Notes: generated by a model from the sequence alone, not told the origin. Shown: positions 21,342 to 63,448, counted from the stretch's first letter. The stretch is 64,000 bases of DNA from a virus (UHGV-1558314), one strand, 5' to 3'. Translations and numbers: made by a program.

Positions 21342-21358
21342 TCTAAATGAGATTTAGA
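21342..21358 (-). promoter_or_regulatory. palindromic leader element TCTAAATGAGATTTAGA just upstream of the Mre11-Rad50 start codon
   Basis: Same 17-bp palindrome as at 14388-14404, at -3 to -19 from the ATG. Confidence 0.5.
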
Positions 21359-36131: not shown

Positions 36132-37265
36132 CTACTTGAGCCCATTGATGAATGCTTCAGTTTCAGCATCCATCGTTGCTGCTGCAGGTGCTGCTGCTGG
36201 AGCTGCTGCAGGTGCAGGCTCTGCTGCAGGTGCTGAAGCTGCTGCAAACGGGTCAATAGCTGTCTGAGCTGCTGGTGCAGTAGCAGGCGCAGCTGCCGGA
36301 GCTGCTGCAGGTGCAGGCTGAGTAGTCTGTGCCTGCTGAGCTGCTGACGAATTGATGACAATGTCAGGCCAGATATCCGACACATCCTTGTAGTTAGCAA
36401 GGCGCATCTTAACCTGACGCTTGATGTCATCAGAAGCTTCGTGGTAGCCCCACTCCTTTTCGACATTCGGGTACTCCTTGAGCATGTCGACAATCTGCTG
36501 CATGATTTGCTGCTTGTATGCAGGGTCAGTGTCATACTTCGCCTGGTCAACAAGGCTGCCATCTGCAAGCAGCATCGACGATACGTTGGGCGAAATCGTC
36601 GAAGTCTCGTAGTCACGCATTTCAACGCCATTGACGTCTTTAAGCGTAATCTTCAAGAGAATGTCGTGGCCCTTAACAGGATGGAACATGTCCATAGGCT
36701 GAGCGCCCATTTGGATGTCTTCGTCGGTCGGCTTCATTGAGCTCAGCATTCTTTTATACAATGCAGCAGGGAGTCGATATGGGAGTACTTTCCCAACGTT
36801 CTCAGGGTGCACTGAATCAGCTTTGATTTGCACGAGGCAAGTGTACTGACTCTGCATACTGAACTCTCGCTTTGCAAGCGCTTCCTGCTGAGCATCCTTG
36901 GTATTGATGAGTTCCCAGTAGAACGCCGAAATGGGGCACCAACCGTAGGGTTTCATCAAATTTTCCGGATTTTCAGGATGCGGATTAGGCGAGCTCGGCG
37001 AATTGTAGCGGAAGCCCTGATTATGGCCAGTTGCAAACCAGTAATAACGAACGATTGAAATCGGTACTGCTGGGTCTGCTAAATTCGGCAATACGCGAAT
37101 AACTGCACGATAAACTTTGTCCTTTGGCGAATCCTGCGGCTTAGGATTGAAGAACTCAGGTCCTGCAGAACGTTCCGGCTTAGCAAAGCTTGCTACATTG
37201 TCCGGCTGGACATCAAAGATTGACAGCGGCTGATTACCGGTCTGTCCATTTTCAATTTGTGACAT
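36132..37265 (-). CDS. single-stranded DNA-binding protein (T4 gp32-like) with Ala/Pro-rich linker
   Basis: RAVIRVLPN and HPENVGKVLPYRL resemble gp32 core segments (AVIRFLPS; APENEGKVFKYRF), recalled from memory. Codon usage is visibly G/C-richer than neighbours. Confidence 0.55.
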   Translation of the reverse strand: MSQIENGQTGNQPLSIFDVQPDNVASFAKPERSAGPEFFNPKPQDSPKDKVYRAVIRVLPNLADPAVPISIVRYYWFATGHNQGFRYNSPSSPNPHPENPENLMKPYGWCPISAFYWELINTKDAQQEALAKREFSMQSQYTCLVQIKADSVHPENVGKVLPYRLPAALYKRMLSSMKPTDEDIQMGAQPMDMFHPVKGHDILLKITLKDVNGVEMRDYETSTISPNVSSMLLADGSLVDQAKYDTDPAYKQQIMQQIVDMLKEYPNVEKEWGYHEASDDIKRQVKMRLANYKDVSDIWPDIVINSSAAQQAQTTQPAPAAAPAAAPATAPAAQTAIDPFAAASAPAAEPAPAAAPAAAPAAATMDAETEAFINGLK

Positions 37266-41477: not shown

Positions 41478-42401
41478 TTACATTGAGATGTTAAGAATTC
41501 GCTTGACTACAGAATCGATATCATTGTTTGCAGCATTGCACAGTTCCATGCGAACATTAGAATCAATGAACAAGTTATGAAACGTTGACGCAGCTTGAAC
41601 AAGATGACACCAGATTGCTCGTCTACACATTGCAAGTTCTCTGTCAGCTTTGCTGCATTGCATGAGATACGAGTTTGCTCTATCACTGTAATATGACTGA
41701 GCATACTTGCATTGACGTTCAGCGTCATTTACAATGTACATGTATGGAGTCTTGACGTCAAAGTAAATTTTGCAATACAATGACTTGTCATCAATTGCAA
41801 AGTCATCAATATTGACAGTCAAATCTGTCATTGCATACGTCAAACCTCTGTCATGCAAATATGCAAACATTGCAGTATAGCATTGATGCAATGTAGCAAT
41901 CAATTCACATTTGTCAGTTGACTGAACAACTTTGTATGCTGCTTTGATTGCCTTTGCATATATGAGCTGCAAACACAGCTCTTTGCGACGCAATGCTTTG
42001 CGTTCAAATTGTCGCTCATATTTGATGTGCTTACGTATGCGTTTGCGTTCTGTAAGCAATTTCGACAAGTCAATACGAATGTATTTTGATACATTTGTAA
42101 CAGCGGTGTCAATACTGTGCCACTGTTCAATGTCGTCAATGTCAAGTTCATGCGCAAGTGAATGTGACACTCTGCCGTACATGTATAAGACTTTGCAGTT
42201 GTCATCGCATAATGCATACATACACCATGATGACAGTTCAATGTCATGCTCAAATGTGGCAAAATCAACTTCTACTGCAATATTTGCGTTTGTGCATATG
42301 CATTTTTGAATGTCAATGTCACTTAAGTACCACTTGAAAAATGAATCGACTTCTGCAGAATGTTGACTTATGATGCGCTTGAACAGCTTGTTCGATTTCA
42401 T
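41478..42401 (-). CDS. hypothetical protein (307 aa)
   Basis: ORF track. Confidence 0.45.
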   Translation of the reverse strand: MKSNKLFKRIISQHSAEVDSFFKWYLSDIDIQKCICTNANIAVEVDFATFEHDIELSSWCMYALCDDNCKVLYMYGRVSHSLAHELDIDDIEQWHSIDTAVTNVSKYIRIDLSKLLTERKRIRKHIKYERQFERKALRRKELCLQLIYAKAIKAAYKVVQSTDKCELIATLHQCYTAMFAYLHDRGLTYAMTDLTVNIDDFAIDDKSLYCKIYFDVKTPYMYIVNDAERQCKYAQSYYSDRANSYLMQCSKADRELAMCRRAIWCHLVQAASTFHNLFIDSNVRMELCNAANNDIDSVVKRILNISM

Positions 42402-42688
42402 GCTCGTATAAGTTTGATGACACAGTGCCTACAAGTAGCAAAAGTACTCAATATTGTTTCTACTTTGACACTGTACTGCACATCAATGACACGATATGTG
42501 CCACACAATGCAGACATTTCTTGACGACGTTCTGCAGGTACATTGACACTGTCTGTCAAATTGATGATTGCACCAATCTGCATAGATGACATGACTGCAA
42601 ATTGTTCTGGACCTACTTCTGCTTTGCGATATGCGACTTGTTTGTTGTTTTCGCAAATACTGAATGCTACTGTATAATCTGGTGTCAT
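42398..42688 (-). CDS. hypothetical protein (96 aa)
   Basis: ORF track; 4-nt overlap. Confidence 0.4.
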   Translation of the reverse strand: MTPDYTVAFSICENNKQVAYRKAEVGPEQFAVMSSMQIGAIINLTDSVNVPAERRQEMSALCGTYRVIDVQYSVKVETILSTFATCRHCVIKLIRA

Positions 42689-42700
42689 GATAGTCGCGTT

Positions 42701-43180
42701 TTATTCATTATCGTCATCATATCCCATGCAATCTTCAAGACTTGCAAAGTCATCATCAAAGTCATCGAATTCAGGCTCTTTATTGCACCATTTGTAAGGT
42801 GGATTGTTGAGCAATTCAAGCTCTATTGCATTTGACTGTGCAGAAATCGGAACATATTCGAATGCTTCGACTGACATATCAAATTTGATGCAATGCAGCC
42901 ACGGAAACATATCAGTGTCCTCATGCACAATGGGCTGACGAACGTAGTCTTTCATTGCAATGAACTTGCTGCTGTTGTCCCAGTCTTCAATAGGAATTTC
43001 AAACTGTGATATGGTCGTATGACAATCGTCAAAGAAATTGCAGGATACGCCTACAATAACGTGCGTGTCTGTACGTTGACGTTCTATTGCAAGAAAGTCG
43101 TGTTTCTTGGAAAGATGAACTTCTCCATGCTTCTCTAAAAAGATTTTAAGAAGCTCTTTGTTAATGTCATTGATATTCAT
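42701..43180 (-). CDS. hypothetical acidic protein (159 aa)
   Basis: ORF track; acidic C-terminus. Confidence 0.4.
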   Translation of the reverse strand: MNINDINKELLKIFLEKHGEVHLSKKHDFLAIERQRTDTHVIVGVSCNFFDDCHTTISQFEIPIEDWDNSSKFIAMKDYVRQPIVHEDTDMFPWLHCIKFDMSVEAFEYVPISAQSNAIELELLNNPPYKWCNKEPEFDDFDDDFASLEDCMGYDDDNE

Positions 43181-43202
43181 TGCTGTAGAGATTTTATGAT
43201 GT

Positions 43203-43514
43203 TTAATACTGAGTTTTTGCAGATATAGCTACTTTAATTGCTGCTTTAATTTGTTCGATTGCATCTTGTGAGAACAATTCTGGCACTGCTAAATAGTGAT
43301 ACCATGATGTTGGCGCTGCCTGCATATCAGTTCGTTTAATTGCGAACCGAAGTTCTTTTGGTGAACCAAGGCAACCCATATATTGGCAGCTTATTAGCTT
43401 AACTTGCACATTGTTAATGCTGCTATGAATAGCAAGATGAGACAGATTTATTCTGTCATAGAATTTTAGATGCTTGAGTTGTTTTTCAATTGCTTTGAAT
43501 GCGTTTGTATTCAT
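43203..43514 (-). CDS. hypothetical protein (103 aa)
   Basis: ORF track; promoter/5' UTR (AAACCTCTACAACA-ATG) near-identical to that of gene 10397..10618. Confidence 0.4.
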   Translation of the reverse strand: MNTNAFKAIEKQLKHLKFYDRINLSHLAIHSSINNVQVKLISCQYMGCLGSPKELRFAIKRTDMQAAPTSWYHYLAVPELFSQDAIEQIKAAIKVAISAKTQY

Positions 43515-43587
43515 TGTTGTAGAGGTTTGTATACTATATTGATATATGATAATTGTACTACAAATTTATCAAATTTGCACTGATTTA

Positions 43588-43696
43588 ATATATAATATGT
43601 CAATAAATTTCACATATAAAGTCTTTTCGCTTATGAAAACTACTCAACTCTGGTTTGAACGCCAGCAGTCAATCGCGGGGGGGCTCTTCGTGACAC
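43588..43696. repeat. left arm of a near-perfect inverted repeat of about 109 bp
   Basis: tatataatatgtcaataaatttcacatataaagtcttttcgcttatgaaaactactcaactctggtttgaacgccagcagtcaatcgcgggggggctcttcgtgacac; its reverse complement occurs at 46611-46721 with one small indel. Confidence 0.85.
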
Positions 43697-43749
43697 AGGC
43701 ATGCGCATATACGTGCGTGACAATGCTGATAACATTGTTAATGGGCTAA
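43633..43749 (+). other. short leader ORF (MKTTQLWFERQQSIAGG...) containing a G7 tract, in the +1 frame relative to downstream gene 43701..44333
   Basis: ATG at 43633; G7 at 43677-43683. The gene A frame is open from 43659 through the G tract, so a -1 shift or one extra G fuses leader and gene. Confidence 0.5.
43677..43683 (+). repeat. homopolymeric G7 tract (candidate slippage site)
   Basis: cgcgggggggctc read directly. Confidence 0.9.
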
Positions 43750-44333
43750 CTTGCTATTTGCACTGTATTGAAACAGGTCGAACACTTCAAAGAGACTTGC
43801 ACACAAGCAATAATGGTGATGGCGTCACATTTTACATAACTGGTGATGACTATAAGCAATTAGTCGGCTCAACAAAAGACGCACAATTTTATCTTATTGA
43901 CACGCCTGATGCTGCAGATATGTCTTGGTCATCTGCAGCATTTACACTTAGATATGGCGCAGATATAGTTAACAACACACTAAATGTCAATATTGAAGCG
44001 TTCAAATCATGCGAAGTAACAATAACTAACAGTGGCAATACATGCAGTTGCACCGCAATGCTTGAATCTGCATTGCCAGTGGCAATTAAACTGTCAACAA
44101 TTTGCAATACATCAGTAGCATCTAATGTCGATGTGTCAGTTAACATAGCTGCAAATAGCTTGACTGCTAATTTTAGAGTTGGCAATAGCTTATCTGCAAA
44201 ATTGACGCATGTCGGCATATGGTCTATTGCTAATGCTTCTTATGTTTCACCAATATATGAGGGTGCTATAATTGTGAAAACACTGAACGACATATTTCAC
44301 GTGTTCATAACAGATAAGACAACACTTGGCTAA
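43701..44333 (+). CDS. cassette gene A (210 aa), candidate variable fibre or receptor-binding protein
   Basis: ORF track; first plus-strand gene after the strand switch; starts 5 nt after the IR. Confidence 0.5.
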   Translation: MRIYVRDNADNIVNGLTCYLHCIETGRTLQRDLHTSNNGDGVTFYITGDDYKQLVGSTKDAQFYLIDTPDAADMSWSSAAFTLRYGADIVNNTLNVNIEAFKSCEVTITNSGNTCSCTAMLESALPVAIKLSTICNTSVASNVDVSVNIAANSLTANFRVGNSLSAKLTHVGIWSIANASYVSPIYEGAIIVKTLNDIFHVFITDKTTLG

Positions 44334-44368
44334 GTGTACATATCTTACAACATTCAAACATATAGCAT

Positions 44369-44425
44369 ATGAAAACTCCACAATTTTGGTTTGAGCGTCA
44401 ACAAGGGCTAGCGGGGGGGCTCTAA
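44369..44425 (+). other. leader ORF copy B (MKTPQFWFERQQGLAGGL, 18 aa) with G7 tract
   Basis: Diverged at nucleotide level from the IR copy but conserved as peptide. Stop immediately after the G tract, while the gene B frame opens immediately before it. Confidence 0.5.
44413..44419 (+). repeat. homopolymeric G7 tract
   Basis: gcgggggggctc read directly. Confidence 0.9.
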
Positions 44426-44462
44426 ATTAGTCTACCTGCAACTTGTTATTGGCGACGCTTCG

Positions 44463-44891
44463 TTGTACAACTTTGGCACTACTGAAACAATGGCGATACA
44501 AGGTACAATATCGCTTGACAATGTCACAGTTAACATACCAACGTCAGGCTTTCCTATCAAAATGATGGAATGCCGCGGTGGTGAAACTCATGCAATTGGT
44601 GCGTTAATGATGCCAAAAGCTTATGACTACTCAAACTTTGCTGCAAAAATTGGTTTTGGCTGCTATGCAGCAGATGGTCGTGGCACTGGCAACGTTTACA
44701 ACATCAATGTGTATGCCAACATTAACAACACAAGCCCTGGTGGTAATCCCATACTGTTAACTTCTATGGCATGGCAATATCCATTAGGCGTTGGTGATAA
44801 GCTTACATTGCCAATGTCAAATCCATCTGTCAAAGTTAACAATGGAGATATCGTGTCAATCATACTTAAGAATGCAAGGAAAGTCAGCTAA
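44463..44891 (+). CDS. cassette gene B (142 aa; start uncertain)
   Basis: ORF track uses a TTG start; in-frame ATG at 44490. The frame is open upstream to the G7 tract (RGGSKLVYLQLVIGDASLYNFGTTET...). Confidence 0.45.
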   Translation: MYNFGTTETMAIQGTISLDNVTVNIPTSGFPIKMMECRGGETHAIGALMMPKAYDYSNFAAKIGFGCYAADGRGTGNVYNINVYANINNTSPGGNPILLTSMAWQYPLGVGDKLTLPMSNPSVKVNNGDIVSIILKNARKVS

Positions 44892-44975
44892 CTGACAGAT
44901 GCATCACATATAAGCAATGCTCCACTGAGAAATCTCAGTGGAGCATTTTTTGTGCTGTTTGGCAATTTTAGACAT

Positions 44976-45386
44976 CTATATGCTATAGTATGCCCTATTG
45001 ACAAGCAACACATAGTCACCACACAGTAATGCAGCGTACGACATCATGCAATCATCTTGCGGCGCACTGACATCTGCATATCCTTTTGCGTACATAACCA
45101 TGTTGTTGTGCACAAAGTCAACTTTAGCATTTGCATAAATTGCATCAGTGCCACGGTCAACTATAAATGATTCACCGCGTTCAAGCGCATTTGCATTAAT
45201 TGTCACGGTAGATGTACCAGCATTAATGCTGTACAATGTATTTGGCACAGCATTAATGCTGGTACTTGATACCGTCATAAACTTAGCAGCAAATATGCTA
45301 TCAACCAAATCACCAAATTGTGCTGAGGTGGGTTTATCTCCGGTTTCAAAATACGTTTTGAGTACCGAACGTGTTTGAACTGCCAT
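44976..45386 (-). CDS. tail-fibre-like protein (cassette gene D, 136 aa)
   Basis: N-terminal LKTYFETGDKPTSAQFGDLVDSIF resembles a motif I recall from phage tail fibre/collar proteins. Not searched. Confidence 0.45.
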   Translation of the reverse strand: MAVQTRSVLKTYFETGDKPTSAQFGDLVDSIFAAKFMTVSSTSINAVPNTLYSINAGTSTVTINANALERGESFIVDRGTDAIYANAKVDFVHNNMVMYAKGYADVSAPQDDCMMSYAALLCGDYVLLVNRAYYSI

Positions 45387-45404
45387 ATGTTTCGATGTTT
45401 TAAG

Positions 45405-45587
45405 TTATGCAATGTGACATGAAAGCAACACTGCAAACTTTTCATCGAATGCAATGTCACCTACGTTATAACAAGAGATTGAGCCAGATATGTGACCCCC
45501 CCAATTCAATTTGAATGTCATAAAGCTTATGAGTTTGTAAATGTTTGTTTTGTTTATATATTTTGACTGCCCATATGTACATATCAA
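45405..45587 (-). other. small upstream ORF (60 aa) containing a G7 tract, in frame with and 6 codons upstream of gene D
   Basis: ORF track; ...FKLNWGGHISG... spans the G7 tract. Confidence 0.3.
45496..45502 (-). repeat. homopolymeric G7 tract (C7 on plus strand)
   Basis: gtgaccccccccaatt read directly. Confidence 0.9.
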
Positions 45588-45658
45588 AACAACATCTTAG
45601 TTGTTTTGCATCTTGCATCAAAACAACATCTTAGTTGTTTTGCATCTTGCATCAAAAC
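45583..45658. repeat. tandem direct repeat (34-bp unit, 2.2 copies), each unit containing a 9-bp-stem hairpin
   Basis: atcaaaacaacatcttagttgttttgcatcttgc repeated; CAAAACAAC / GTTGTTTTG inverted repeat inside each unit. Confidence 0.8.
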
Positions 45659-45895
45659 TCATAGGCATTGCATTCAAAGATGAAGATTTTACAGCAGACA
45701 TTGCACTTGATAACGCGTCATTTTATGATGGCCAAACTGCATGGCTAACTGGAAAGCTTCTGGCAGCATTGTGTTAAGTATAAAACAGTTACATTGAAAG
45801 CTAACACAACAGTAAACATCGCCATTTAATGCACATCAAAAACTCCACTGAACAATTAAGTTCAGTGGAGTTTTTGATGTGTAGTGTGCAAAATA

Positions 45896-46549
45896 CTACA
45901 ACATATTCCAGTTTGTTATGTCATACATGTTGAAGCTGAACGCTGATGTGATGTATCCAAGAGTAGTCAAGATGTCCACACCAACTACAGGGTCATTTGC
46001 AATAAGCAAAATACAGTTAGTGACAGACGTATCGACCATATTGTCTGCTTGAAAATCATTGTGCATCAACCAGTCAGCAAAGCAGATGTCATAGTACACA
46101 GGATTGCCTGCAAATACTTTATCATTTCCAAATGCTTCTGATGGGTGCGACAATGTAGATGCAAGCAGTTGAATGTCTTCATCTGTGCAAGACGATTTAA
46201 TGTCATCAAGCACAATTGCTACACGCTGCTCATTTGTCTCTGAATCACCTCTATGAATTTCATGAATCCAAGGCAAGCATGCAAGTGCATCACCACATGT
46301 CAAATTGACATTATCAAGTGTCTCGCCTTGACCTGCGTAGCAATATAAAGTGGAGCCAGTGCCATAACGTAGACAGTCATTTATGCTGACATTATCAAGA
46401 TACACTGAACAAATTGACAATGCACCTGCACCAAGCCTGTTTGCAGGAATTGTCAACTTATATGTTGGCACGCCATTTGACTGCACTGTAATAGGCGAGC
46501 CCGCTAATAATTCACCAGTGTCAGCATCATAGCATTCGACTTCTTGCAT
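45896..46549 (-). CDS. cassette gene C (217 aa), candidate variable fibre or receptor-binding protein
   Basis: ORF track; its frame is open upstream through the IR G7 tract (TPAVNRGGALRDTIISGTINKADGSLLEAAYAT-MQEVECYD...). Confidence 0.5.
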   Translation of the reverse strand: MQEVECYDADTGELLAGSPITVQSNGVPTYKLTIPANRLGAGALSICSVYLDNVSINDCLRYGTGSTLYCYAGQGETLDNVNLTCGDALACLPWIHEIHRGDSETNEQRVAIVLDDIKSSCTDEDIQLLASTLSHPSEAFGNDKVFAGNPVYYDICFADWLMHNDFQADNMVDTSVTNCILLIANDPVVGVDILTTLGYITSAFSFNMYDITNWNML

Positions 46550-46610
46550 AGTCGCATATGCAGCTTCAAGTAGTGAACCATCTGCTTTGTTGATAGTGCC
46601 GCTGATAATA

Positions 46611-46721
46611 GTGTCACGAAGAGCCCCCCCGCGATTGACTGCTGGCGTTCAAACCAGAGTTGAGTAGTTTTCATAAGCGAAAAGACTTTTTGTATGTGAA
46701 ATTTATTGACATATTATATAT
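46611..46721. repeat. right arm of the inverted repeat (reverse complement of 43588-43696)
   Basis: Direct comparison of both arms; includes the leader ORF start (ATG at 46674, minus) and a G7 tract. Confidence 0.85.
46624..46630 (-). repeat. homopolymeric G7 tract (C7 on plus strand)
   Basis: gagcccccccgcg read directly. Confidence 0.9.
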
Positions 46722-46734
46722 CAGGCAGCAATAT

Positions 46735-46775
46735 GCACAAAAAAGAAGAGCATCGGTTAAAAACCGATGCTCTTT
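46735..46775 (-). terminator. rho-independent terminator after BACON-like gene
   Basis: Stem GAAGAGCATCGGTT / AACCGATGCTCTTT, followed on the minus strand by TTTTTTGTG. Confidence 0.55.
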
Positions 46776-46822
46776 CAAGTTCTGCTGTGAACTGTTCAAT
46801 AGTGTAATCTTGTTGTACTCGA

Positions 46823-47437
46823 TTACGATACAGTCCACGGGCAGTTTGCGGTAACCGTAACCGTAACGGCAGGAGTACCGGCCTGAGGAATCGTGATTTC
46901 CTGCTTGTCGAGTACCAGCGTCGGGTCACCAGCAGCCTGAACGATTGCAATCTGAGCAGTCTGGGCACCGTTGGCAGTTACCAAAATCGATGTCGTGCGC
47001 TCGTTAATCGTCAAGTTGGCAGGAATGTCAAGCTCAATGCTGAAAGCAAACTCGGCGTTGGCACCAGGGTCACCAGTGATTGCTACGCCATTGTTGGTTT
47101 CTACACCAGCAACTGCGTACTTTTTAGGCAGTTCGATAACAAACTCGCCGCCCTCAACGATGCTGAACGTCAGCTTCGATGAGTTAGATACACCGGTTAC
47201 GGTAAGAGTACCGCCAGCTTTAGGAGCTGACATCTCTGAGCCGTTGTCAAATGACACGAACTCAGCCTTTGCAGTCTGCTGTACATTGTACGTTGAAGGC
47301 GCTGCAATACCAGCACCCTGAACGGTTACAACACCAGTACGTGCAATACGACCAGTGTGGGCGTCAGCAGAGTTGGAAATTGAACCATTACCCGAACCAG
47401 ATGTCGGGCTAAGTTTCAACCATGCGGGTTTAGCCAT
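46823..47437 (-). CDS. BACON/Ig-like domain protein (204 aa)
   Basis: N-terminus MAKPAWLKLSPTSGSGNGSISNSADAHTGRIARTGVVTV fits the BACON pattern (W-L...SP-x-SG-x-G...R-x-G-x-VTV) and ends ...VTVTANCPWTVS. Codon usage is G/C-richer than its neighbours. Confidence 0.5.
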   Translation of the reverse strand: MAKPAWLKLSPTSGSGNGSISNSADAHTGRIARTGVVTVQGAGIAAPSTYNVQQTAKAEFVSFDNGSEMSAPKAGGTLTVTGVSNSSKLTFSIVEGGEFVIELPKKYAVAGVETNNGVAITGDPGANAEFAFSIELDIPANLTINERTTSILVTANGAQTAQIAIVQAAGDPTLVLDKQEITIPQAGTPAVTVTVTANCPWTVS

Positions 47438-47495
47438 TGTTCAAAATTGTTATTAAGTGAGTGTATATGTTTAACACAAATTCGATGATTGCTCA

Positions 47496-48095
47496 TCAAA
47501 GAATTTTCCAAGAAGCGTTTGATGTCAAATTCATTGTGATTGTCGTGCCATCATCATCAACTGTCACAGATTCTGTACTCAGCACAAGAGTTGCTGCAGC
47601 AGCTGCTTGAGTAATGCTAACATTCAATGATTTGCCACCAGGAGTTGTCACTGTCAATACAAATGATTTCTGTTCAATTGTCAAATTTTGCGGTATTGTA
47701 GCTTCAATTGACCATGCAAACTTTGCAATATATCCAGGGTCATTTGCAATTGCTGTGTCATTTGTTGCAGCGACGCCATTTGCTGTGTACGCAGTCGGAA
47801 TGCTAAGATTCGGATTTGTAGTTGCAAACTTAAGTTTTGCTGCGTTAGACTCACCAGAAACAACAATTTTTGTGGTTGCCGCAGAAACATTGTATGATGT
47901 TGTGCCAGATACAAATTCTGCAAGAGCAGCTTGGTTGATTGTTGCTTGCTTTGTAACTGTTGGTGTGGTCTTCGTTTGCACAGTCGCAATTGTGCTACGA
48001 ATGCCTCTGCCGGTATGAGCTCCTGCAGTAAATGCCAGGATATCATTACCCTCACCAGACATTGGTGAACACTGTGCCCATATAGCTTTTGCCAT
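47496..48095 (-). CDS. BACON/Ig-like domain protein (199 aa), paralog
   Basis: N-terminus MAKAIWAQCSPMSGEGNDILAFTAGAHTGRGIRSTIATV parallels 46823..47437 and 48167..52495. Confidence 0.5.
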   Translation of the reverse strand: MAKAIWAQCSPMSGEGNDILAFTAGAHTGRGIRSTIATVQTKTTPTVTKQATINQAALAEFVSGTTSYNVSAATTKIVVSGESNAAKLKFATTNPNLSIPTAYTANGVAATNDTAIANDPGYIAKFAWSIEATIPQNLTIEQKSFVLTVTTPGGKSLNVSITQAAAAATLVLSTESVTVDDDGTTITMNLTSNASWKIL

Positions 48096-48166
48096 TGTTA
48101 CTGTGCAATTTTTAATTGTTTGACATGATATTTATATGCATTGCTTAAGCAATGTTGAATTGACAT

Positions 48167-51100
48167 TTATCGAACAAGGAATGATGTACCAACAACCATA
48201 TTCGGGATTGCCAAGCCATTGCCAGACTGGCTTACTGCAACTGTGCCACTTGTGTAGCCTGACAATGCAGCAGTAATTGTTGCCGACCTGCTGTTATCTG
48301 AACCCCAGTTGTTTGCAGCTGACAATGTCGAACCGCTGATTGTGAATGCACCATTGTTCGATGAGTACGTTGGAGTAACCGCAGCATCTGATGTTGTAGA
48401 CTGACCTGTCGTGTACTTTGTGACAGTTCGACCTGTCGTAGACAATGTTGCAGTGCCACCAGCAGCCCCAAAGCTTGTAACAGTTGAGCTGACAATCAGA
48501 GTCTTCGTAGTCGAAGTCACACTGTTGGCTTCCTGTGTAGCAGTGATTGCTTTTGAGCCAGTTTGACCATTCAACGCAACCGTCATATTGACTGTAGCGG
48601 TTCTTGCAGAACCAGCAGTTGTGCCACGATTTGCAGCAGTCAATGAACCGGTTGTACTACTGTTAAGCGTAAAGCCAGTAGTTGTAGCCATACTGTATGA
48701 AATTGTACCGCCAGATGTAATAGTAGTTTTTGAACCACTTGTGTACGTTGCTGTCTGCGAGTATGCTGGCGTGCCTGTTGGAGTCTTTGTTGCACCTGCT
48801 GCAGCAAATGTTGCATATGATGTTGCTGTAGTAACTGTGACTGCGCTGTATGATACACTGTTAGCTGCTTGATAAACATCAAGAGCTTTTGTAGCAGTCT
48901 TAGACCCTTCACCAGTAGCAGTTGCAGTCAAAGTGCCAATCTTTGTACGAGCTTTGACTGTAGTGCCAAGCGATGATGCGCTGACTTTTGTGCTATACGC
49001 AATGCTAACTGAACCTGGCCTTGTGCTGCCAGACGTATATGTAATTGTCTGTGATGCACTGATGCCAGACATTGATGCAACTTCACCGCCACCAGCAGGA
49101 ATATCTGACACAGTTCCACCAGAAATTGTAACCGCGCCATATGTCGTAATTGCATTTGCAGCTTGGTACACATCGACTGCTTTTGTTCCAGATTTGCCAT
49201 TGACTGTTACTGTAACAGTAGATGTTGTAATCTTTGTGCGGGCTTTAGCAGTAGTGCCAAGTGAACTACCAGACACTGCGCCAGTAGACGTTGTTACACC
49301 AGTGCCAGACCATGATTTGCTGCCACCAGACGTAACTGTCTGTGTTGAGCCACTTGACCACATAACTGATTGACTGAATGACACTGAAGGCGTAACTGAG
49401 CCACCCTTTGCAGGAACATCGCTATAAGTCATCGAAACTGTGGGCGTACCATATGTAGCAGCATTAGCATTTTGAGATGCAGTAGCAGTCTTTGTTCCAC
49501 TGATGGCTTTTGTGCCTGCAGCATTGTATGACGCAGTAGGCGTCCATGTAGCTGTTACAGTCTTTGTGACTGTCAGCGATGTAGTTGCGCCACTTGCAGT
49601 AGTGCCTTTTGATGATGCGGTTATAGCACCAGTAGATGTATTGAGTGCAGTGAACAATCCTGATGCGCCTGGCCAACTATATGATGTTGTAGTTGACAAT
49701 GAACCATACGTAGATGCTGGCGCAGTAGTTGAAGTACTGCCACTACTAAAATGGTATGTTACTGTGTTTGCACCATTTGACGGTGTAGATGTTCCGCCAC
49801 CTGCAGCAATTGCAGGATATGACATCGAACCAACTGCAATATTGAGTGCAGTCACATAGTTGCCTGCCTGATAAATCGTGGCAGACTTGCTGGCAGATTT
49901 GCCATTCATTGTGACTTTAACAGTCAGTGTGCCTGCAGTAGTCTGGTTAGATATTGCGGTGTCTTTTGATTGCGCAGTGACTGTTGACGTATACTCAATT
50001 GTTCCGCCGCTTGTCAGTGTTTCTGTCGTCTTTTCACCAGTAGCATATGTCGTAGTTTTGACCTGCGAGTAAGTTACTGTGCCAGATTTTACAGAACCTC
50101 CGCTTGCTGCAATGATAGTTGCAGACGGCGTCAAGTTAACTGTGATATCGCTATATGTAACTGTGCCAGCAGATTGAGCTGCTTGATAAACATCTGCAGC
50201 TTTTGATGCAGACTTGCCATTGAGTGCTACTGTGACAGTCAATGTGCCAATCTTTGTTCGTGGCTTAACTGTTGTGCCAAGTGATGATGCAGTGATACCT
50301 GCTGCTGGACTGTATGAAATTGTTGCACCAGTAGTGATGTTCTGTGTTGAAGTTGATGTGTATGTTGCAGTCTGCGAATATGACACATTGCCGCTCTTAA
50401 TTGTACCACCAGTTACAGGAATATCTGCTACAGTGAAGCTTGAAATTGTAACTGCGCCATATGACACAGTGTTTGCAACTTGCTTGACTGTGCAAGAACC
50501 AGTTTTTGTAACACCGCCCTCAGTATATGAGCCAGAAATTGTAATGCTGCGTTCTGCGCCTACGACTGTTGTGCGATTTGCTGCAGTTACTGTAGCAGTC
50601 GACAATGTAAAGCCAGTTGCTGAACCGCTAAGTGTTGCAGATACTGCAGCAGATGACGTTGAGCCTGATGCATATGTGTATGACGCTGTTGAAGTGATTG
50701 TAGTTGAACCGCCACCAGCTGCCAATGTTGCAGCGCCAGGTGTCAATGTCAAGCCATTCAGCGTCTTTGAGTTTGCAGTTTGTGTTGCAGTAGCAGTTTT
50801 TGTAGCAGACTTGCCATTGATTGCTACCGTAACTGTGACAGCATTTGAAGCATCAGTAGAGCCTACATATGATGTGCCCATTGACGTTACAGTCAATGCG
50901 CCACTTGTCGTATTCAATGTCCAGCGTGACTTAGCAGTCATTGCATAAGACAATGTAGCGCCACTTGTCAATGTGCCACCTGAGCCAGCTACGCCATTCC
51001 AAGTCCAAACTTGTGAATATGAAACAGTTGGGTTTGATGTACCACCAGCAGGAGCAATGTTAGCATATGAGAATGTTCCAATGACAGGCGTTGCATAGAC

Positions 51101-52495
51101 TTTAGCACCTGCAGCTTGGTTGAACGTAATATCTTTTGATGCAGACTTACCATTTGCAGTGACTGTCAAGGTGACAACAAACCCATTACGTGCAACAGTA
51201 GAATTGTTGTTTGTCACTGTGACATTCAAGCCAGACAAGCTGTAGCCTGTTGCAGCAGTTTTGACGGCAGCAGTCCATATGCCGCCTGACGTGTTACTAT
51301 CAGTTGAGCCGCTGCTGTATGTCATTGACTGCGTAAATGTTGCAGATGCATTAGCTGCAACAGTTTGACCTGCTACTGCAAGAGCAACTGGTGTTGTCTT
51401 TGTAATGACTGGTGTGCCGTATGTAATGCTGTTGGCTGCTTGTGTAATTGATACAGTAGCAGTTGCATTGCCATATGACGCTGTGCCGCTAAATGACCGA
51501 GCATCACCGACAGTCTTACCACGATTTGCAGATGTTACAGAATTTGCAGATATTGTAAAGCCTGTTGCAGTGCCTGTAATTGTTGGCTTGACATTTGTTT
51601 CAGTAGATGTAACAACACCGTTCCATGTCACAGTGTACGTACCAGTGATGGTTGATGTTCCACCTGCTGCAGTATGACTTGTTGAATATGTGTTCAAAGC
51701 AAGTTTGTACACAACTGAACCTGCAGCTTGTGAGCATTTAACGGTCTTCGATAATTCATGACCACTTACAGTCAGTGTTGGTGTAACTGCTGCAGTTGAC
51801 GTGTTGTTCGGTGTATTGACAGTGATTGTTGCAGGACCTGTGCCAGATGCTTTTGAGACTGACCAACCTGCAGGTACGCCCGAAATTGTCCATGCAAAGT
51901 CAGGATTACAAGAAATTGCGAATGTCTTCGATTCACCCTTTGCAACAAATGACAAAGTTTCTGGTGATACTGCCAATGTTGCACTTGCACCAGCTTGATT
52001 TACTGTAAATGTTGCAGACTTGCCACCAGGCGTTGACAATGTGAAAGTGAATGCCTTTGCAGCGATTGCAGTATGTGCAGCAATCTGCACTCGTACAATG
52101 ACTTCAAATTCTGCATTGACACCAGGGTCATTGTCAAAATTTGTATTAAGCGCATAATCTTTGCTTGCAACAGTTACGCCAAGCACTGTGCCACTTGCAG
52201 TACCGCCAGTACTGCCAAGCACAAGTTTTTGTGCATTTGTGACACATTTCAATGTTGCAATAGTGCCACCATTTGACGCAATGTTTGTAGATGCAACTGT
52301 AGCTCGTATAGTTTCACCAGGAGACTCTTGCAATACTGCACAGTTTTCAGTTACTACTGGTGAACCTGTAGTTGTTTGCGCAGTAAAGCTGCCAGACCTG
52401 TTATTTCGACCAGTATGCACAGATGCTTTGACAGACAACTGTGAGTTGCCTGTGCCAACATCAGGTGTAACTGTCAACCAAGTAGGCTTTGCCAT
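48167..52495 (-). CDS. giant Ser/Thr/Gly-rich fibre or adhesin-like protein (1442 aa) with N-terminal BACON-like domain and about eight tandem Ig-like repeats
   Basis: N-terminus MAKPTWLTVTPDVGTGNSQLSVKASVHTGRNNRSGSF; repeated T[L/V]TV-x-x-NGKS-x-[ST]K...YQAAN modules of about 100 aa. Plus-strand ORFs here are antisense artefacts. Confidence 0.65.
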   Translation of the reverse strand: MAKPTWLTVTPDVGTGNSQLSVKASVHTGRNNRSGSFTAQTTTGSPVVTENCAVLQESPGETIRATVASTNIASNGGTIATLKCVTNAQKLVLGSTGGTASGTVLGVTVASKDYALNTNFDNDPGVNAEFEVIVRVQIAAHTAIAAKAFTFTLSTPGGKSATFTVNQAGASATLAVSPETLSFVAKGESKTFAISCNPDFAWTISGVPAGWSVSKASGTGPATITVNTPNNTSTAAVTPTLTVSGHELSKTVKCSQAAGSVVYKLALNTYSTSHTAAGGTSTITGTYTVTWNGVVTSTETNVKPTITGTATGFTISANSVTSANRGKTVGDARSFSGTASYGNATATVSITQAANSITYGTPVITKTTPVALAVAGQTVAANASATFTQSMTYSSGSTDSNTSGGIWTAAVKTAATGYSLSGLNVTVTNNNSTVARNGFVVTLTVTANGKSASKDITFNQAAGAKVYATPVIGTFSYANIAPAGGTSNPTVSYSQVWTWNGVAGSGGTLTSGATLSYAMTAKSRWTLNTTSGALTVTSMGTSYVGSTDASNAVTVTVAINGKSATKTATATQTANSKTLNGLTLTPGAATLAAGGGSTTITSTASYTYASGSTSSAAVSATLSGSATGFTLSTATVTAANRTTVVGAERSITISGSYTEGGVTKTGSCTVKQVANTVSYGAVTISSFTVADIPVTGGTIKSGNVSYSQTATYTSTSTQNITTGATISYSPAAGITASSLGTTVKPRTKIGTLTVTVALNGKSASKAADVYQAAQSAGTVTYSDITVNLTPSATIIAASGGSVKSGTVTYSQVKTTTYATGEKTTETLTSGGTIEYTSTVTAQSKDTAISNQTTAGTLTVKVTMNGKSASKSATIYQAGNYVTALNIAVGSMSYPAIAAGGGTSTPSNGANTVTYHFSSGSTSTTAPASTYGSLSTTTSYSWPGASGLFTALNTSTGAITASSKGTTASGATTSLTVTKTVTATWTPTASYNAAGTKAISGTKTATASQNANAATYGTPTVSMTYSDVPAKGGSVTPSVSFSQSVMWSSGSTQTVTSGGSKSWSGTGVTTSTGAVSGSSLGTTAKARTKITTSTVTVTVNGKSGTKAVDVYQAANAITTYGAVTISGGTVSDIPAGGGEVASMSGISASQTITYTSGSTRPGSVSIAYSTKVSASSLGTTVKARTKIGTLTATATGEGSKTATKALDVYQAANSVSYSAVTVTTATSYATFAAAGATKTPTGTPAYSQTATYTSGSKTTITSGGTISYSMATTTGFTLNSSTTGSLTAANRGTTAGSARTATVNMTVALNGQTGSKAITATQEANSVTSTTKTLIVSSTVTSFGAAGGTATLSTTGRTVTKYTTGQSTTSDAAVTPTYSSNNGAFTISGSTLSAANNWGSDNSRSATITAALSGYTSGTVAVSQSGNGLAIPNMVVGTSFLVR

Positions 52496-62551: not shown

Positions 62552-63448
62552 TTACAGTGTTCCGCAAAGCAATTCACGTAAATCCATGCCGGCTTGTGTA
62601 CTGTACTGAGCAATAAGATTACGTTCTGAATCAGACATACTCCAATAAATCTTATGCAGAGCTCTACGAATAATAGTATGAATGCCAGATGTGCTACAAT
62701 TGAACTTCTTTGCAAGTTCTGCATGAGTTAACAAATCAGCATCGCCAAGGCCATACACATGTGTGAGTACAAGCTTTTCATTTTGAGTGAGTTGTTCAAA
62801 TGCTCTTTGCAGAATCTTTGTGATACGTTTGTGAGCATCTTCGATTTCAAGAACTTCTTGGCCTGTTTTGAAGTCTGACCTCAAATCATTCTGAACTGGT
62901 GACCATGCGTCACCATCTTTGTCAAGTGTAGTGTCATCCTTGCTGATGAATTGCTTGCCTTCAAGAGCTCTTTCATATGCTCCACGAATACCAGTAGATA
63001 ATTGTTGACTTGTCAGATTGAGTTCGTCAAGCACATATTTCTTAATCCAAGGATATGCATATGTGCTAAACTTTGCTTCACGAACTCCTGCAGGCAATAC
63101 GCCTTCTACGTAATTCTTGGCTGCTATTGACAATCCAAGATTGCCTGCTTGAATGACGTCATCAAATGGAACCGAGCGTTTGCCAGATGCGAACCATAAG
63201 CTTCGTGCAACTGATATGACCAATCTTAAACAAGATTTGATAAGAGCTTCACGATTTTCTTGAGTCTTCTTGAATCGAGTAACATCACAATATCGCTTTG
63301 CAGTAGCCAGCGATTTGACTTCTTCAGGAGTAAGCTCATTCTCCATCCTCATTTGCTTGAGCTCTTCCTTTGTGTATAGACGTTCTCTTGTGATTCTACC
63401 TACGTCCTTTACGTAGCCTTGATTGATTTGTGAATTTGAACCTGCCAT
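62552..63448 (-). CDS. sigma-70-family RNA polymerase sigma factor (regions 2 and 4)
   Basis: Region 2: DDVIQAGNLGLSIAAKNY and FSTYAYPWIKKYV; region 4 HTH: LTQNEKLVLTHVYGLGDADLLTHAELAKKFNCSTSGIHTIIRRALHKI. Confidence 0.7.
   Translation of the reverse strand: MAGSNSQINQGYVKDVGRITRERLYTKEELKQMRMENELTPEEVKSLATAKRYCDVTRFKKTQENREALIKSCLRLVISVARSLWFASGKRSVPFDDVIQAGNLGLSIAAKNYVEGVLPAGVREAKFSTYAYPWIKKYVLDELNLTSQQLSTGIRGAYERALEGKQFISKDDTTLDKDGDAWSPVQNDLRSDFKTGQEVLEIEDAHKRITKILQRAFEQLTQNEKLVLTHVYGLGDADLLTHAELAKKFNCSTSGIHTIIRRALHKIYWSMSDSERNLIAQYSTQAGMDLRELLCGTL

What the first reader, a model, noticed from the sequence alone, without database searches (positions are those of the whole stretch)
44369..44490. 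Leader copy B is conserved at peptide level despite nucleotide divergence, with a textbook shift-site frame layout
Copy B encodes MKTPQFWFERQQGLAGGL against MKTTQLWFERQQSIAGG in the IR copies. The four substitutions are conservative (T/P, L/F, S/G, I/L) although the nucleotide sequence differs at many positions, which argues for selection on the peptide or its codons rather than a shared promoter alone. The leader frame stops immediately after the G7 tract (TAA at 44423) and the gene B frame opens immediately before it (TAG at 44409). Here the required shift is +1, or loss of one G, opposite to copies A and C, so different tract lengths would switch different genes on.
Basis: seen in the sequence. 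Interest (0 to 1): 0.78.

Follow-up and report, generated by a model that had tools for sequence, protein, structure and literature searches.

The report
Poly-G on/off switches in phage genes
A large gut phage carries a cluster of small genes, each split from its start codon by a run of G's whose length varies between closely related genomes and sets the gene in or out of frame. This extends a gene-switching trick known from Campylobacter phages to a new phage group.

Summary
At 44369 a short ORF (MKTPQFWFERQQGLAGGL*) runs through a G7 tract (44413-44419) and stops at TAA 44423. The gene B frame opens after TAG 44409 and runs to 44891, offset +1.

The window has only four G7 tracts, all within 43677-46630 (0.07 expected). 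Each follows a short leader in front of a small orphan gene.

In 31 related loci from gut metagenomes (a ~175-181 kb Bacteroidota-type myophage), every tract varies in length: A G7/G8, C G6/G7/G8, D G7-G10, and B G7, G8, T+G7 or GGGAG7.

In-frame fusions exist in nature: A at G8 (233 aa), C at G8 (259 aa), a substitution-locked C allele (GGGGAGGG), and gene B fused in frame to a different leader (MNITMNWGG, 165 aa).

The 69 nt between the B tract and its first ATG evolve as coding sequence (6 of 8 variable sites silent in the B frame). Leader differences are silent across WFERQQ.

The best reading is a cluster of poly-G contingency loci with a portable leader-tract module. Gene B is OFF in this genome and would be ON at G6 or G9.

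The "opposite shift direction" is specific to this haplotype group and is not a conserved design. The mechanism is known from Campylobacter and T-even phages. The lineage, the clustering and the shared module are new. The function of the proteins is unknown.

The parts
44369..44425 (+). Leader B ORF (type 1b), MKTPQFWFERQQGLAGGL*. It ends at TAA 44423-44425.
   Evidence: The peptide is conserved, with only silent changes, in 20 related copies.
44413..44419 (+). G7 tract of cassette B. This is an OFF length; G6 or G9 would fuse the leader to gene B.
   Evidence: Relatives carry G7, G8, T+G7 and GGGAG7 at this site.
44409..44411 (+). TAG stop in the gene B frame immediately before the tract.
44412..44891 (+). 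Gene B reading frame, open from the tract to the stop (159 codons). First ATG at 44490, TTG at 44463. It is an orphan beta-rich protein.
   Evidence: The junction evolves as coding sequence. Gene body dN/dS is 0.09-0.31. The only family found is its own cluster. No Pfam or PHROG match.
43588..43696 (+). Left arm of the 109-nt inverted repeat. It holds upstream sequence, leader A (ATG 43633), the G7 tract at 43677-43683 and 13 nt beyond.
43633..43749 (+). Leader A ORF in the G7 (OFF) state, 38 aa.
43684..44333 (+). Gene A, in the -1 frame relative to the leader. G8 gives a 233-aa fusion. The internal ATG at 43701 is GTG in relatives.
   Evidence: G8 ON alleles occur in L070 and L090.
46611..46721 (-). 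Right arm of the inverted repeat. It holds leader C (ATG 46674) and the G7 tract at 46624-46630.
45896..46623 (-). Gene C, in the -1 frame relative to the leader and open from the tract. First ATG at 46549. G8 gives a 259-aa fusion.
   Evidence: Database members of 217, 251 and 259 aa. L070 has G8 ON and L086/L087 have GGGGAGGG locked ON.
45405..45521 (-). Leader D (type 2), MTFKLNWGG..., with its G7 tract at 45496-45502. It is a 38-aa upstream ORF that ends 18 nt before the gene D start codon.
   Evidence: Tract lengths of G7, G8, G9, G10 and G8TG occur in relatives.
44976..45386 (-). Gene D. Its N-terminus (MAVQTRSVLKTYFETGDKPTSAQFGDLVDS) is shared with genes in many other phage contigs, which I read from my own knowledge as tail-fibre-like. 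Relatives carry a tandem family of D-like genes.
44916..44947 (.). Hairpin terminator shared by the converging A-B and C-D units.

Best explanation
The region 43588-46721 is a cluster of phase-variable (contingency) genes in a large gut Bacteroidota-type myophage. Each cassette has three parts in order: a short translated leader that supplies the only usable start codon, a poly-G tract, and the body of a small orphan gene.

Slipped-strand mispairing at the tract during phage DNA replication adds or removes G's. A given genome therefore either fuses leader and gene (ON) or terminates after 18-56 codons (OFF).

In this window cassette B is OFF at G7 and would be ON at G6 or G9. Cassettes A and C are OFF at G7 and would be ON at G8.

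The leader plus tract plus about 4-15 nt behaves as a portable module. It is found in front of unrelated gene bodies and is exchanged by recombination at the tract.

What is shown:
- the anatomy of the cassettes;
- tract-length polymorphism between near-identical genomes;
- natural ON and substitution-locked ON alleles;
- a coding-type substitution pattern across the junction and the leader;
- purifying selection on the gene bodies.

What is inferred:
- that switching is frequent and reversible within one phage population;
- that it serves bet-hedging, probably in host recognition or another host-interaction function, given the position at the end of the baseplate and tail-fibre module.
For: 1. 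G7 tracts occur only here: 4 in 64 kb against 0.07 expected.

2. Tract length varies at every cassette across 31 related loci.
- A: G7 x8, G8 x2, G6TGG x4.
- C: G7 x10, G6 x3, G8 x1, GGGGAGGG x2.
- F: G7 x5, G6 x2.
- B: G7 x10 (nine behind the type-1b leader, one behind the A/C-type leader in L089), G8 x4, T+G7 x2, GGGAG7 x5.
- D leader: G7, G8, G9, G10, G8TG.
- E: G5, G9, G10, G11.
- The variation includes differences between assemblies that share an identical gene C or gene B protein (L071-L078; L083 against L084/L085).

3. In-frame fusions exist in nature.
- A at 233 aa (L070, L090).
- C at 259 aa (P0032/L070).
- C locked ON by a G-to-A change inside the tract (L086/L087).
- B at 165 aa behind leader MNITMNWGG (L035/P0005).
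- E at 118 aa (L036).

4. The 69 nt between the B tract and the first ATG have 8 variable sites. Six are silent in the B frame, against 0 and 1 in the other frames, and no haplotype has a stop. This frame has no canonical start codon between TAG 44409 and TTG 44463.

5. All seven single-base differences among type-1 leaders (A/C type against B type, and within the B type) are silent.

6. Gene bodies are under purifying selection although most are OFF: dN/dS is 0.09-0.31 for B, 0.21-0.34 for A and 0.23-0.48 for C.

7. There is no stable RNA structure downstream of the A, B or C tracts (z = -0.6, 0.1, +1.5) and no Rfam match.

8. Precedent exists. Hypermutable poly-G tracts in Campylobacter phages are reported by Sorensen et al. 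2021 (Cell Rep 35:109214). That paper was not held in the library. It is cited in PMC12823448, which lists polyG tracts among possible determinants of broad host range. Homopolymer contingency loci in T2 and T4 are described in bioRxiv 10.1101/2025.10.21.683753.
Against: - No read-level data were available. High-frequency, reversible switching within one population is not shown, only differences between assembled consensus sequences.
- ON states are rare: 5 of 61 type-1 copies. Gene B behind its type-1 leaders (20 B-type copies and one A/C-type) was never seen ON (0 of 21). Chance alone would give about one third ON. This requires selection against ON in bulk populations or another route to expression.
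- The ATG at 44490 is conserved in all copies, so a 133-aa product independent of the tract cannot be excluded.
- The most frequent OFF state (35 of 61) is the one that a -1 ribosomal slip on G GGG GGG would rescue.
- Homopolymer-length errors in short-read assemblies could contribute to some length differences. They cannot explain the substitution-interrupted alleles.
- Protein function is unknown. Structure predictions failed (pLDDT 41-42).
Confidence: 0.77

Rival explanations
1. Recoding rather than DNA switching. The G7 state is the working state, and ribosomes (-1 slip on G GGG GGG) or RNA polymerase (addition of a G) shift frame at the tract. This would give a low, constant level of fusion protein. 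The conserved 17-aa leader might act as a nascent peptide that pauses the ribosome on the Gly-Gly codons.
For: - In the leader frame, A and C read GCG GGG GGG, a formally perfect X XXY YYZ heptamer, and a -1 slip gives the gene frame.
- The same holds for gene B in the G8, T+G7 and GGGAG7 haplotypes.
- The state needing +1 nt is the commonest: 35 of 61 type-1 copies.
- The leader peptide is conserved at amino-acid level. The short type-2 leaders are the ones found in frame.
Against: - There is no conserved or stable downstream structure. Sequence beyond about 13 nt after the tract is unrelated between cassettes.
- Frame relations are not conserved. Twenty-one of 61 type-1 copies, including gene B in this window, would need the opposite (+1) shift.
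- In-frame G8 alleles and substitution-locked in-frame alleles exist.
- G-only heptamers are not established efficient slip sites (my own knowledge, not tested here).
Confidence: 0.1
2. Gene B is an ordinary gene that starts at ATG 44490. The leader and tract upstream are a separate small upstream ORF, or a decayed remnant of a duplicated 5' end, with no role in producing gene B protein.
For: - ATG 44490 is conserved in all 15 copies inspected.
- Gene callers report 133 aa in nearly all database entries.
- Gene B behind a type-1 leader was never seen in frame (0 of 21).
- The gene body is under strong purifying selection although it is 'OFF'.
Against: - The 69 nt upstream of the ATG evolve as coding sequence in the gene B frame and never acquire a stop.
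- One lineage has a 165-aa in-frame ORF running from a leader ATG through G7 into this stretch.
- The tract is retained in all 22 copies, while the sequence upstream of it has been replaced twice.
- The stops flanking the tract (TAG before, TAA after) are conserved.
Confidence: 0.08
3. Artefact or decay. The tract-length differences are homopolymer errors in short-read assemblies, and the cassettes are pseudogenes interrupted by frameshifts.
For: All comparison sequences are metagenome assemblies, some at low coverage (for example L007 at cov 5 and L018 at cov 3.6). Longer tracts vary most.
Against: - Gene bodies show dN/dS of 0.09-0.48, and all but one of the gene-body comparisons are free of internal stops.
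- Interrupted alleles (GGGGAGGG, G8TG, G6TGG, T+G7, GGGAG7) are substitutions or insertions, not run-length miscalls. Each recurs in several independent samples.
- The four tracts are confined to one 3-kb region of a 64-kb window.
Confidence: 0.03

Closest known systems
Hypermutable poly-G tracts in Campylobacter phages (Sorensen et al. 2021, Cell Rep 35:109214). The paper itself was not held in the library; it is known here only through citing papers.
   Same: Lytic myophage. Poly-G tracts whose length changes create phenotypic diversity in the phage population. That the tracts lie inside genes at or near the host-recognition module, and that several phase-variable genes occur per genome, is my recollection of the paper and was not checked.
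   Different: - No sequence relationship. There was no DNA or protein match in the phage collection and no PHROG match.
- The likely host phylum differs, judged from BACON domains and gut metagenome sources.
- Here the tracts sit directly behind a shared, portable leader with the start codon, in front of a family of unrelated small orphan genes, inside a segment bounded by a 109-nt inverted repeat.
Contingency loci in T2/T4 and other coliphages (Gomez, Barrick & Waters, bioRxiv 10.1101/2025.10.21.683753)
   Same: Homopolymer runs of 6 or more in phage genes give reversible frameshifts by polymerase slippage, interpreted as bet-hedging.
   Different: In those phages the runs (the worked examples are A runs) are scattered through ordinary genes of all classes and switch a normally ON gene off. 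Here G runs are concentrated in one dedicated cassette cluster, sit at the 5' end, and are mostly OFF.
Bacterial translational phase variation in multigene families with a shared 5' end (Neisseria opa CTCTT repeats in the leader; Campylobacter and Haemophilus poly-G genes). From my own knowledge.
   Same: A repeat tract just after a conserved N-terminal coding segment sets the reading frame. Family members switch independently. Interrupted tracts give locked alleles.
   Different: The family is encoded by a virulent-type phage rather than a bacterium. The leader shows no signal-peptide character.
Invertible tail-fibre segments of Mu (G segment/Gin) and P1 (C segment/Cin). From my own knowledge; Mu is cited in PMC12823448.
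   Same: Alternative host-interaction genes lie between inverted repeats that include the shared 5' coding part. One assembly (L007) has the segment in the other orientation.
   Different: No invertase was found among the neighbouring genes tested. Both repeat arms carry a complete leader, so inversion alone would not obviously change expression. The L007 arrangement could be a mis-join at the repeat.
T4 internal-protein locus with capsid targeting sequence MKTYQEFIAE (PMC3012670; bioRxiv 10.1101/2021.01.19.427310)
   Same: A highly plastic locus of diverse small proteins that share only a short N-terminal peptide. The leader MKTTQLWFER shares M-K-T-x-Q with the capsid targeting sequence.
   Different: The resemblance is 4 of 10 residues, and MKT is a common N-terminus. 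Gene B also works with unrelated leaders. No head protease or cleavage evidence was obtained. This is a lead only.

Membership tests
Homopolymer-tract contingency locus (translational phase variation) | Homopolymer run of about 7 or more inside the 5' part of a coding sequence | tested here: met
   G7 at 44413-44419 lies between the leader ATG (44369) and the gene B body. The same layout holds at A and C.
Homopolymer-tract contingency locus (translational phase variation) | Run length is polymorphic among closely related genomes | tested here: met
   Every tract varies across 31 loci, including between assemblies with identical neighbouring proteins.
Homopolymer-tract contingency locus (translational phase variation) | Length changes toggle between a full-length ORF and early termination | tested here: met
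   G8 gives 233-aa A and 259-aa C. G6 and G7 give 19-56 aa peptides. Gene B is 165 aa in frame behind a type-2 leader.
Homopolymer-tract contingency locus (translational phase variation) | High-frequency, reversible switching within a clonal population | not testable with these tools
   No reads or cultures were available, only consensus assemblies.
Homopolymer-tract contingency locus (translational phase variation) | The switched product is functional and under selection | tested here: met
   dN/dS is 0.09-0.48 for the gene bodies. The junction and leader show a coding-type substitution pattern. A locked-ON allele exists.
Campylobacter phage (Fletchervirus) poly-G genes | Sequence homology of the phase-variable proteins or their genomic region | tested here: not met
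   No megablast match to 50,697 phage records. No PHROG or Pfam match. The nearest phages by helicase are Chryseobacterium, Tenacibaculum and Sphingomonas jumbo phages at under 30% identity.
Programmed -1 ribosomal frameshift site | Slippery heptamer X XXY YYZ in the upstream frame | tested here: met
   G GGG GGG is in phase at A and C (G7), and at B in G8-type haplotypes. It is not in the right register for B in this window, which needs +1.
Programmed -1 ribosomal frameshift site | Conserved downstream stimulatory RNA structure | tested here: not met
   Folding z-scores are -0.6, 0.1 and +1.5 for the 84 nt from each tract. Downstream sequences are unrelated between cassettes. There is no significant Rfam frameshift element: the only DnaX match, elsewhere in the region, scored 18 bits against a gathering threshold of 35.
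Programmed -1 ribosomal frameshift site | Fixed frame relationship across homologues | tested here: not met
   All three registers occur at the same cassette in different genomes.
Invertase-driven invertible segment (Mu G / P1 C type) | Inverted repeats flanking alternative genes | tested here: met
   109-nt repeat at 43588-43696 / 46611-46721, 97% identity.
Invertase-driven invertible segment (Mu G / P1 C type) | Adjacent site-specific recombinase gene | tested here: not met
   The ten ORFs from 41478 to 52495 give no recombinase match in Pfam or PHROGs. The rest of the genome was not examined.
Invertase-driven invertible segment (Mu G / P1 C type) | Both orientations present in populations | tested here: inconclusive
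   L007 joins gene C to the left flank. However, it is a low-coverage contig and the repeat is long enough to cause a mis-join.
T4-type capsid-targeted internal proteins | Shared N-terminal targeting peptide cleaved by the head protease | tested here: inconclusive
   A shared 17-22 aa N-terminus is present. Similarity to MKTYQEFIAE is limited to M-K-T-x-Q. tblastn of the leader against phages found nothing. Cleavage and packaging are not testable here.

The most novel reading that the evidence does not exclude
The type-1 leader may not be just a start-codon carrier. Its conserved peptide (W-F-E-R-Q-Q-x-[IL]-A-G-G, with Trp ten residues before the second Gly codon) could act in the ribosome exit tunnel. 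It would pause translation on the GGG GGG codons and drive a -1 slip. On this reading the common G7 'OFF' alleles of A and C, and the G8-type alleles of B, give a low constitutive level of protein. Tract-length changes would then move each gene between off, low and high expression. That would be a three-level volume control combining nascent-peptide-assisted recoding with DNA-level phase variation. A second untested reading of the same conservation is a virion-targeting peptide like the T4 capsid targeting sequence. That would make the locus a phase-variable repertoire of packaged effector proteins.
Probability: 0.1. Interest if true: 0.85.

Novelty: new variant of a known kind. Interest (0 to 1): 0.62.

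Why it matters
Phage-encoded phase variation has been shown experimentally in very few systems: Campylobacter phages and, recently, T-even phages. This locus suggests that abundant, uncultured gut Bacteroidota phages run a whole bank of independently switchable genes beside their tail-fibre module. Their hosts are themselves well known for phase-variable surfaces.

The switches are built from a reusable leader-plus-poly-G module that recombination can place in front of new genes. If confirmed, this gives a simple sequence signature (short leader, G run of 7 or more, orphan ORF out of frame) for finding phase-variable phage genes in metagenomes.

It also explains why gene callers truncate or mis-start these genes. 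And it offers a tractable case of bet-hedging in phage-host arms races in the gut. The existing public metagenome reads could test it directly.

Tried and rejected
- **Close phage relatives.** Megablast of 43400-46900 against 50,697 phage records found nothing. tblastn of the 22-aa leader found nothing.
- **Protein function.**
  - PHROGs and Pfam gave no hit for A, B, C, D, E' or F, whether as ON or OFF versions.
  - An exhaustive HMMER search of gene B against 1.84 billion representatives returned only its own cluster plus weak matches to repetitive, strand-rich proteins.
  - AlphaFold models of B and C were unusable, with pLDDT 41 and 42, so no fold searches were run.
- **Known RNA elements.** Rfam at a permissive threshold gave only sub-threshold noise.
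- **Frameshift-stimulating structure.** None was found downstream of the A, B or C tracts. The apparent pairing of the G tract with the U-rich stretch before the leader A ATG was not significant (z = -1.35).
- **Host or prophage copies.** The scan of 185,579 species genomes gave four chance matches. Of the 25 metagenome pattern hits, 21 were chance.
- **Poly-G as a general feature of phages with D-family genes.** Rejected. Thirty-one other IMG/VR loci with the same N-terminal motif lack such tracts upstream.
- **The repeated motif at 43534-43580 as the promoter for A.** Rejected. In its other copies this motif sits just upstream of minus-strand genes, so here it belongs to the gene at 43203-43514.
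- **The 109-aa gene B calls as evidence that ATG 44490 is not conserved.** Rejected. The ATG is present in all copies.
- **SecM-like and T4 CTS-like resemblance of the leader.** Kept only as untested leads.

Full report
**1. What is in the sequence**

- An ORF starts at ATG 44369 and reads MKTPQFWFERQQGLAGGL*. It passes through a run of seven G's (44413-44419) and stops at TAA 44423-44425.
- In the +1 frame, a TAG at 44409-44411 lies directly before the run. That frame then stays open to 44891.
- That frame holds no ATG, GTG or TTG before TTG 44463, and its first ATG is at 44490.
- Removing one G (or adding two) joins the leader to a 173-aa protein.

Two more copies of the leader sit at 43633 (+) and 46674 (-). 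Both read MKTTQLWFERQQSIAGG and lie inside a 109-nt inverted repeat (43588-43696 / 46611-46721, 97% identity). Each is followed by G7 and by a gene in the -1 frame: A (43701-44333) and C (45896-46549). For these, G8 is the joining length.

A fourth G7 tract (45496-45502, minus strand) follows a different short leader, MTFKLNWGG, upstream of gene D (44976-45386).

These four are the only G7 runs in the 64-kb window, against 0.07 expected. All lie within 3 kb.

**2. Setting**

The window belongs to a large phage.

- It encodes a baseplate wedge protein, helicases, an SbcC-like nuclease, thymidylate synthase and a sigma-like protein.
- It has BACON-domain proteins next to the cassettes.
- Its helicase is under 30% identical to those of Chryseobacterium, Tenacibaculum and Sphingomonas jumbo phages. 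It has no close relative among 50,697 deposited phage genomes.
- Relatives at about 92-95% nucleotide identity occur in gut metagenome assemblies on contigs of 175-181 kb.

The cassettes follow, on the minus strand, the baseplate gene, a 1442-aa repeat protein and two small proteins. The units A-B (+) and C-D (-) converge on a shared hairpin terminator at 44916-44947.

**3. Is the leader translated, and does translation continue across the tract?**

Three lines of evidence say yes.

*The leader.* Leader B differs from A/C at 13 of 45 nt. Four codons are replaced (T/P, L/F, S/G, I/L). The four single-base differences, in the E, R, Q and Q codons, are all silent. Three further single-base polymorphisms among B-type leaders of relatives are silent too. 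If about a quarter to a third of random changes are silent, seven of seven has a probability of roughly 1e-4 (my own rough estimate).

*The junction.* The 69 nt between the B tract and ATG 44490 show 8 variable sites over six haplotypes. Six are silent in the gene B frame, against none and one in the other two frames. No haplotype has a stop in that frame. A roughly comparable estimate gives p of about 0.01. The same holds, less sharply, for gene C: 6 of 11 silent, against 1 and 2.

*Natural fusions.* Because the gene B frame has no start codon in that stretch, translation must enter from the leader ATG through the tract. Fused genes also exist in nature.
- The IMG/VR relative reads MNITMNWGG-SKLVYLQL... 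straight through a G7 tract into gene B, giving 165 aa (protein P0005).
- Other assemblies have G8 at A (233 aa; L070, L090) and G8 at C (259 aa; P0032/L070).

**4. Do the tracts vary?**

Thirty-one related loci were collected and tabulated.

| Cassette | States observed |
|---|---|
| A | G7 x8, G8 x2 (ON), G6TGG x4 |
| C | G7 x10, G6 x3, G8 x1 (ON), GGGGAGGG x2 (in frame, tract broken by a substitution: a locked-ON allele) |
| F (extra cassette in some relatives) | G7 x5, G6 x2 |
| B, own (type-1b) leader | G7 x9, G8 x4, T+G7 x2, GGGAG7 x5, all OFF |
| B, A/C-type leader (L089) | G7, OFF |
| B, type-2 leader (L035) | G7, ON |
| D leader | G10 x8, G8TG x2, G7, G8, G9 |
| E | G5, G9 (ON), G10, G11 |

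Differences occur between assemblies that encode identical gene C or gene B proteins: L071-L078, and L083 against L084/L085. So the tracts change faster than the surrounding sequence.

The gene bodies are nevertheless under purifying selection, with dN/dS of 0.09-0.31 for B, 0.21-0.34 for A and 0.23-0.48 for C. They are not decaying pseudogenes.

**5. Mechanism**

These features match homopolymer contingency loci. Slippage at the run during DNA replication shifts the frame between a full-length protein and a short peptide. Each cassette switches on its own.

The stops that bracket the B tract (TAG before, TAA after) make both OFF registers terminate at once.

The step not shown here is the rate and reversibility of switching within one population. 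That needs reads or a culture.

**6. Rival: recoding**

A -1 ribosomal slip on G GGG GGG, or a transcriptional G insertion, would rescue the commonest OFF register (35 of 61 type-1 copies). It could also explain why the leader peptide is conserved.

Several results count against it.
- There is no stable or conserved structure downstream (z = -0.6, 0.1, +1.5) and no Rfam element.
- Sequence after the first 4-15 nt is unrelated between cassettes.
- All three registers occur at the same cassette. Twenty-one of 61 copies, including gene B in this window, would need the opposite shift.

I give this about 10%.

**7. Rival: ordinary start at ATG 44490**

The ATG is conserved in all copies, and gene B behind a type-1 leader was never seen in frame (0 of 21). 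A tract-independent 133-aa product therefore cannot be excluded.

It does not explain the coding pattern upstream of the ATG, the 165-aa fusion, or the retention of the tract in all 22 copies while the sequence upstream of it has been replaced twice. I give this about 8%.

Assembly artefact or pseudogene decay gets about 3%. The interrupted alleles recur in independent samples, and the genes are under constraint.

**8. A portable module**

Gene B is found behind three different leaders: its own, the A/C-type leader (L089, where gene A is absent) and MNITMNWGG (L035). In each case homology breaks exactly at the tract.

The A/C-type leader plus G(n) plus CTCTTCGTG precedes at least five unrelated gene bodies: A, C, F, a C2 variant, and a dispersed copy elsewhere in the genome (L001).

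The type-2 element AACTGG-G(n)-CACAACAAGCCCTCC precedes at least four.

The unit of evolution is therefore start codon plus leader plus tract plus a few codons. Direct and inverted copies of it drive deletion (L089) and possibly inversion (L007) of cassettes.

**9.

In this window gene B needs one G fewer, while A and C need one more. That is true here and in the L071-type genomes.

In the G8, T+G7 and GGGAG7 haplotypes, gene B needs one more G, like A and C. The difference is one slippage step. It is not a designed opposition.

**10. Comparison with known systems**

The nearest precedents are two.
- Hypermutable poly-G tracts of Campylobacter phages (Sorensen et al. 2021). That paper was not held in the library, so it is known here only through citing papers.
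- Homopolymer contingency loci reported in T2 and T4 (bioRxiv 10.1101/2025.10.21.683753).

This locus works in the same way but shares no sequence with them. It lies in a different, uncultured phage lineage. It also differs in organisation: a dedicated cluster, tracts at the extreme 5' end behind a shared leader, a mostly OFF default, and an inverted-repeat frame.

The T4 internal-protein locus has diverse proteins sharing only the capsid targeting sequence MKTYQEFIAE. It is an intriguing analogy for the shared leader, but the match is only M-K-T-x-Q.

**11. What remains unknown**

- The function of A, B and C. They have no family or fold assignment.
- The host.
- The promoter.
- Why ON alleles are so rare in consensus assemblies.

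**Verdict.** It is a new variant of a known kind of switch.

Noticed in passing
window 45405-45521 (-), tract 45496-45502: The leader in front of gene D is a 38-aa upstream ORF that cannot fuse to gene D, because a stop lies 18 nt before the gene D start codon. Even so, 11 of 13 haplotypes keep the same register (G7, G10, or an interrupted G8TG allele). This hints that the long-uORF state matters, perhaps through translational coupling to gene D.
   Followed up: partly
window 45583-45650; L003 about 700-880: A perfect 34-nt tandem repeat (ATCAAAACAACATCTTAGTTGTTTTGCATCTTGC x2), each unit a small hairpin, lies just upstream of leader D. Relatives have three or more copies plus degenerate ones. 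There the repeats sit between leader D and a divergently oriented E leader.
   Followed up: no
L007 (ERZ1106954 NODE_14520), compared with window 42379-43696 and 45897-46723: Gene C is joined through the repeat to the left flank. That is, the segment between the 109-nt inverted repeats is in the opposite orientation to the window. This is either a real inversion or an assembly mis-join at the repeat; coverage is about 5.
   Followed up: partly
L089 4381-5021: Gene A is absent and the A/C-type leader is fused at the G tract to gene B. This looks like a deletion between the two direct leader/tract copies.
   Followed up: partly
window 46624-46660 (-) and 43650-43683 (+); P0003, P0022; L071 10654-11328: When the tract block length is a multiple of three (G6 or G6TGG), the A or C gene frame lines up with a TTG inside the leader (tgg-TTTG-aac). 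Gene callers then report MNASSQSRG... proteins of 251 or 224 aa. This could be a weak second ON state.
   Followed up: no
L035 3765-4766 (-) (IMG/VR relative, not in the window): A 333-aa predicted lipoprotein gives weak, sub-threshold BNR-repeat-like matches. It carries an in-frame G8 tract immediately after its lipobox cysteine, which would be another phase-variable gene in the same region.
   Followed up: no
L002 10220-10350: Two direct copies of the 5' part of a D-family gene (encoding PTSAQFGDLID) lie in inverted orientation relative to gene D, with no complete gene attached. They may be remnants of cassette exchange. Relatives carry up to four tandem D-family genes (L071 8176-10035).
   Followed up: no
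window 10631, 21353, 25130, 28758, 30841, 37370, 43534: A conserved motif of about 46 nt (TTGATATTGTACAACAT...TTTGCA on the + strand) recurs in the window. At 21353 and 43534 it sits 14-20 nt upstream of a minus-strand gene start. It is a candidate phage promoter or 5' leader. The window also encodes a sigma-like protein at 62552-63448.
   Followed up: no
L001 (IMGVR_UViG_3300045988_152288, outside the cassette region): A further copy of the A/C-type leader plus G7 lies elsewhere in the 174.6-kb relative, in front of an unrelated gene in the -1 frame. Its flanks match none of the cassette loci.
   Followed up: partly
window 48167-52495 (-) and 36165-36319: The 1442-aa protein next to the cassettes has a weak, sub-threshold N-terminal BACON match and is built of diverged internal repeats. 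A separate GCTGCTGCAGG-type repeat region lies in overlapping ORFs near 36.2 kb.
   Followed up: no
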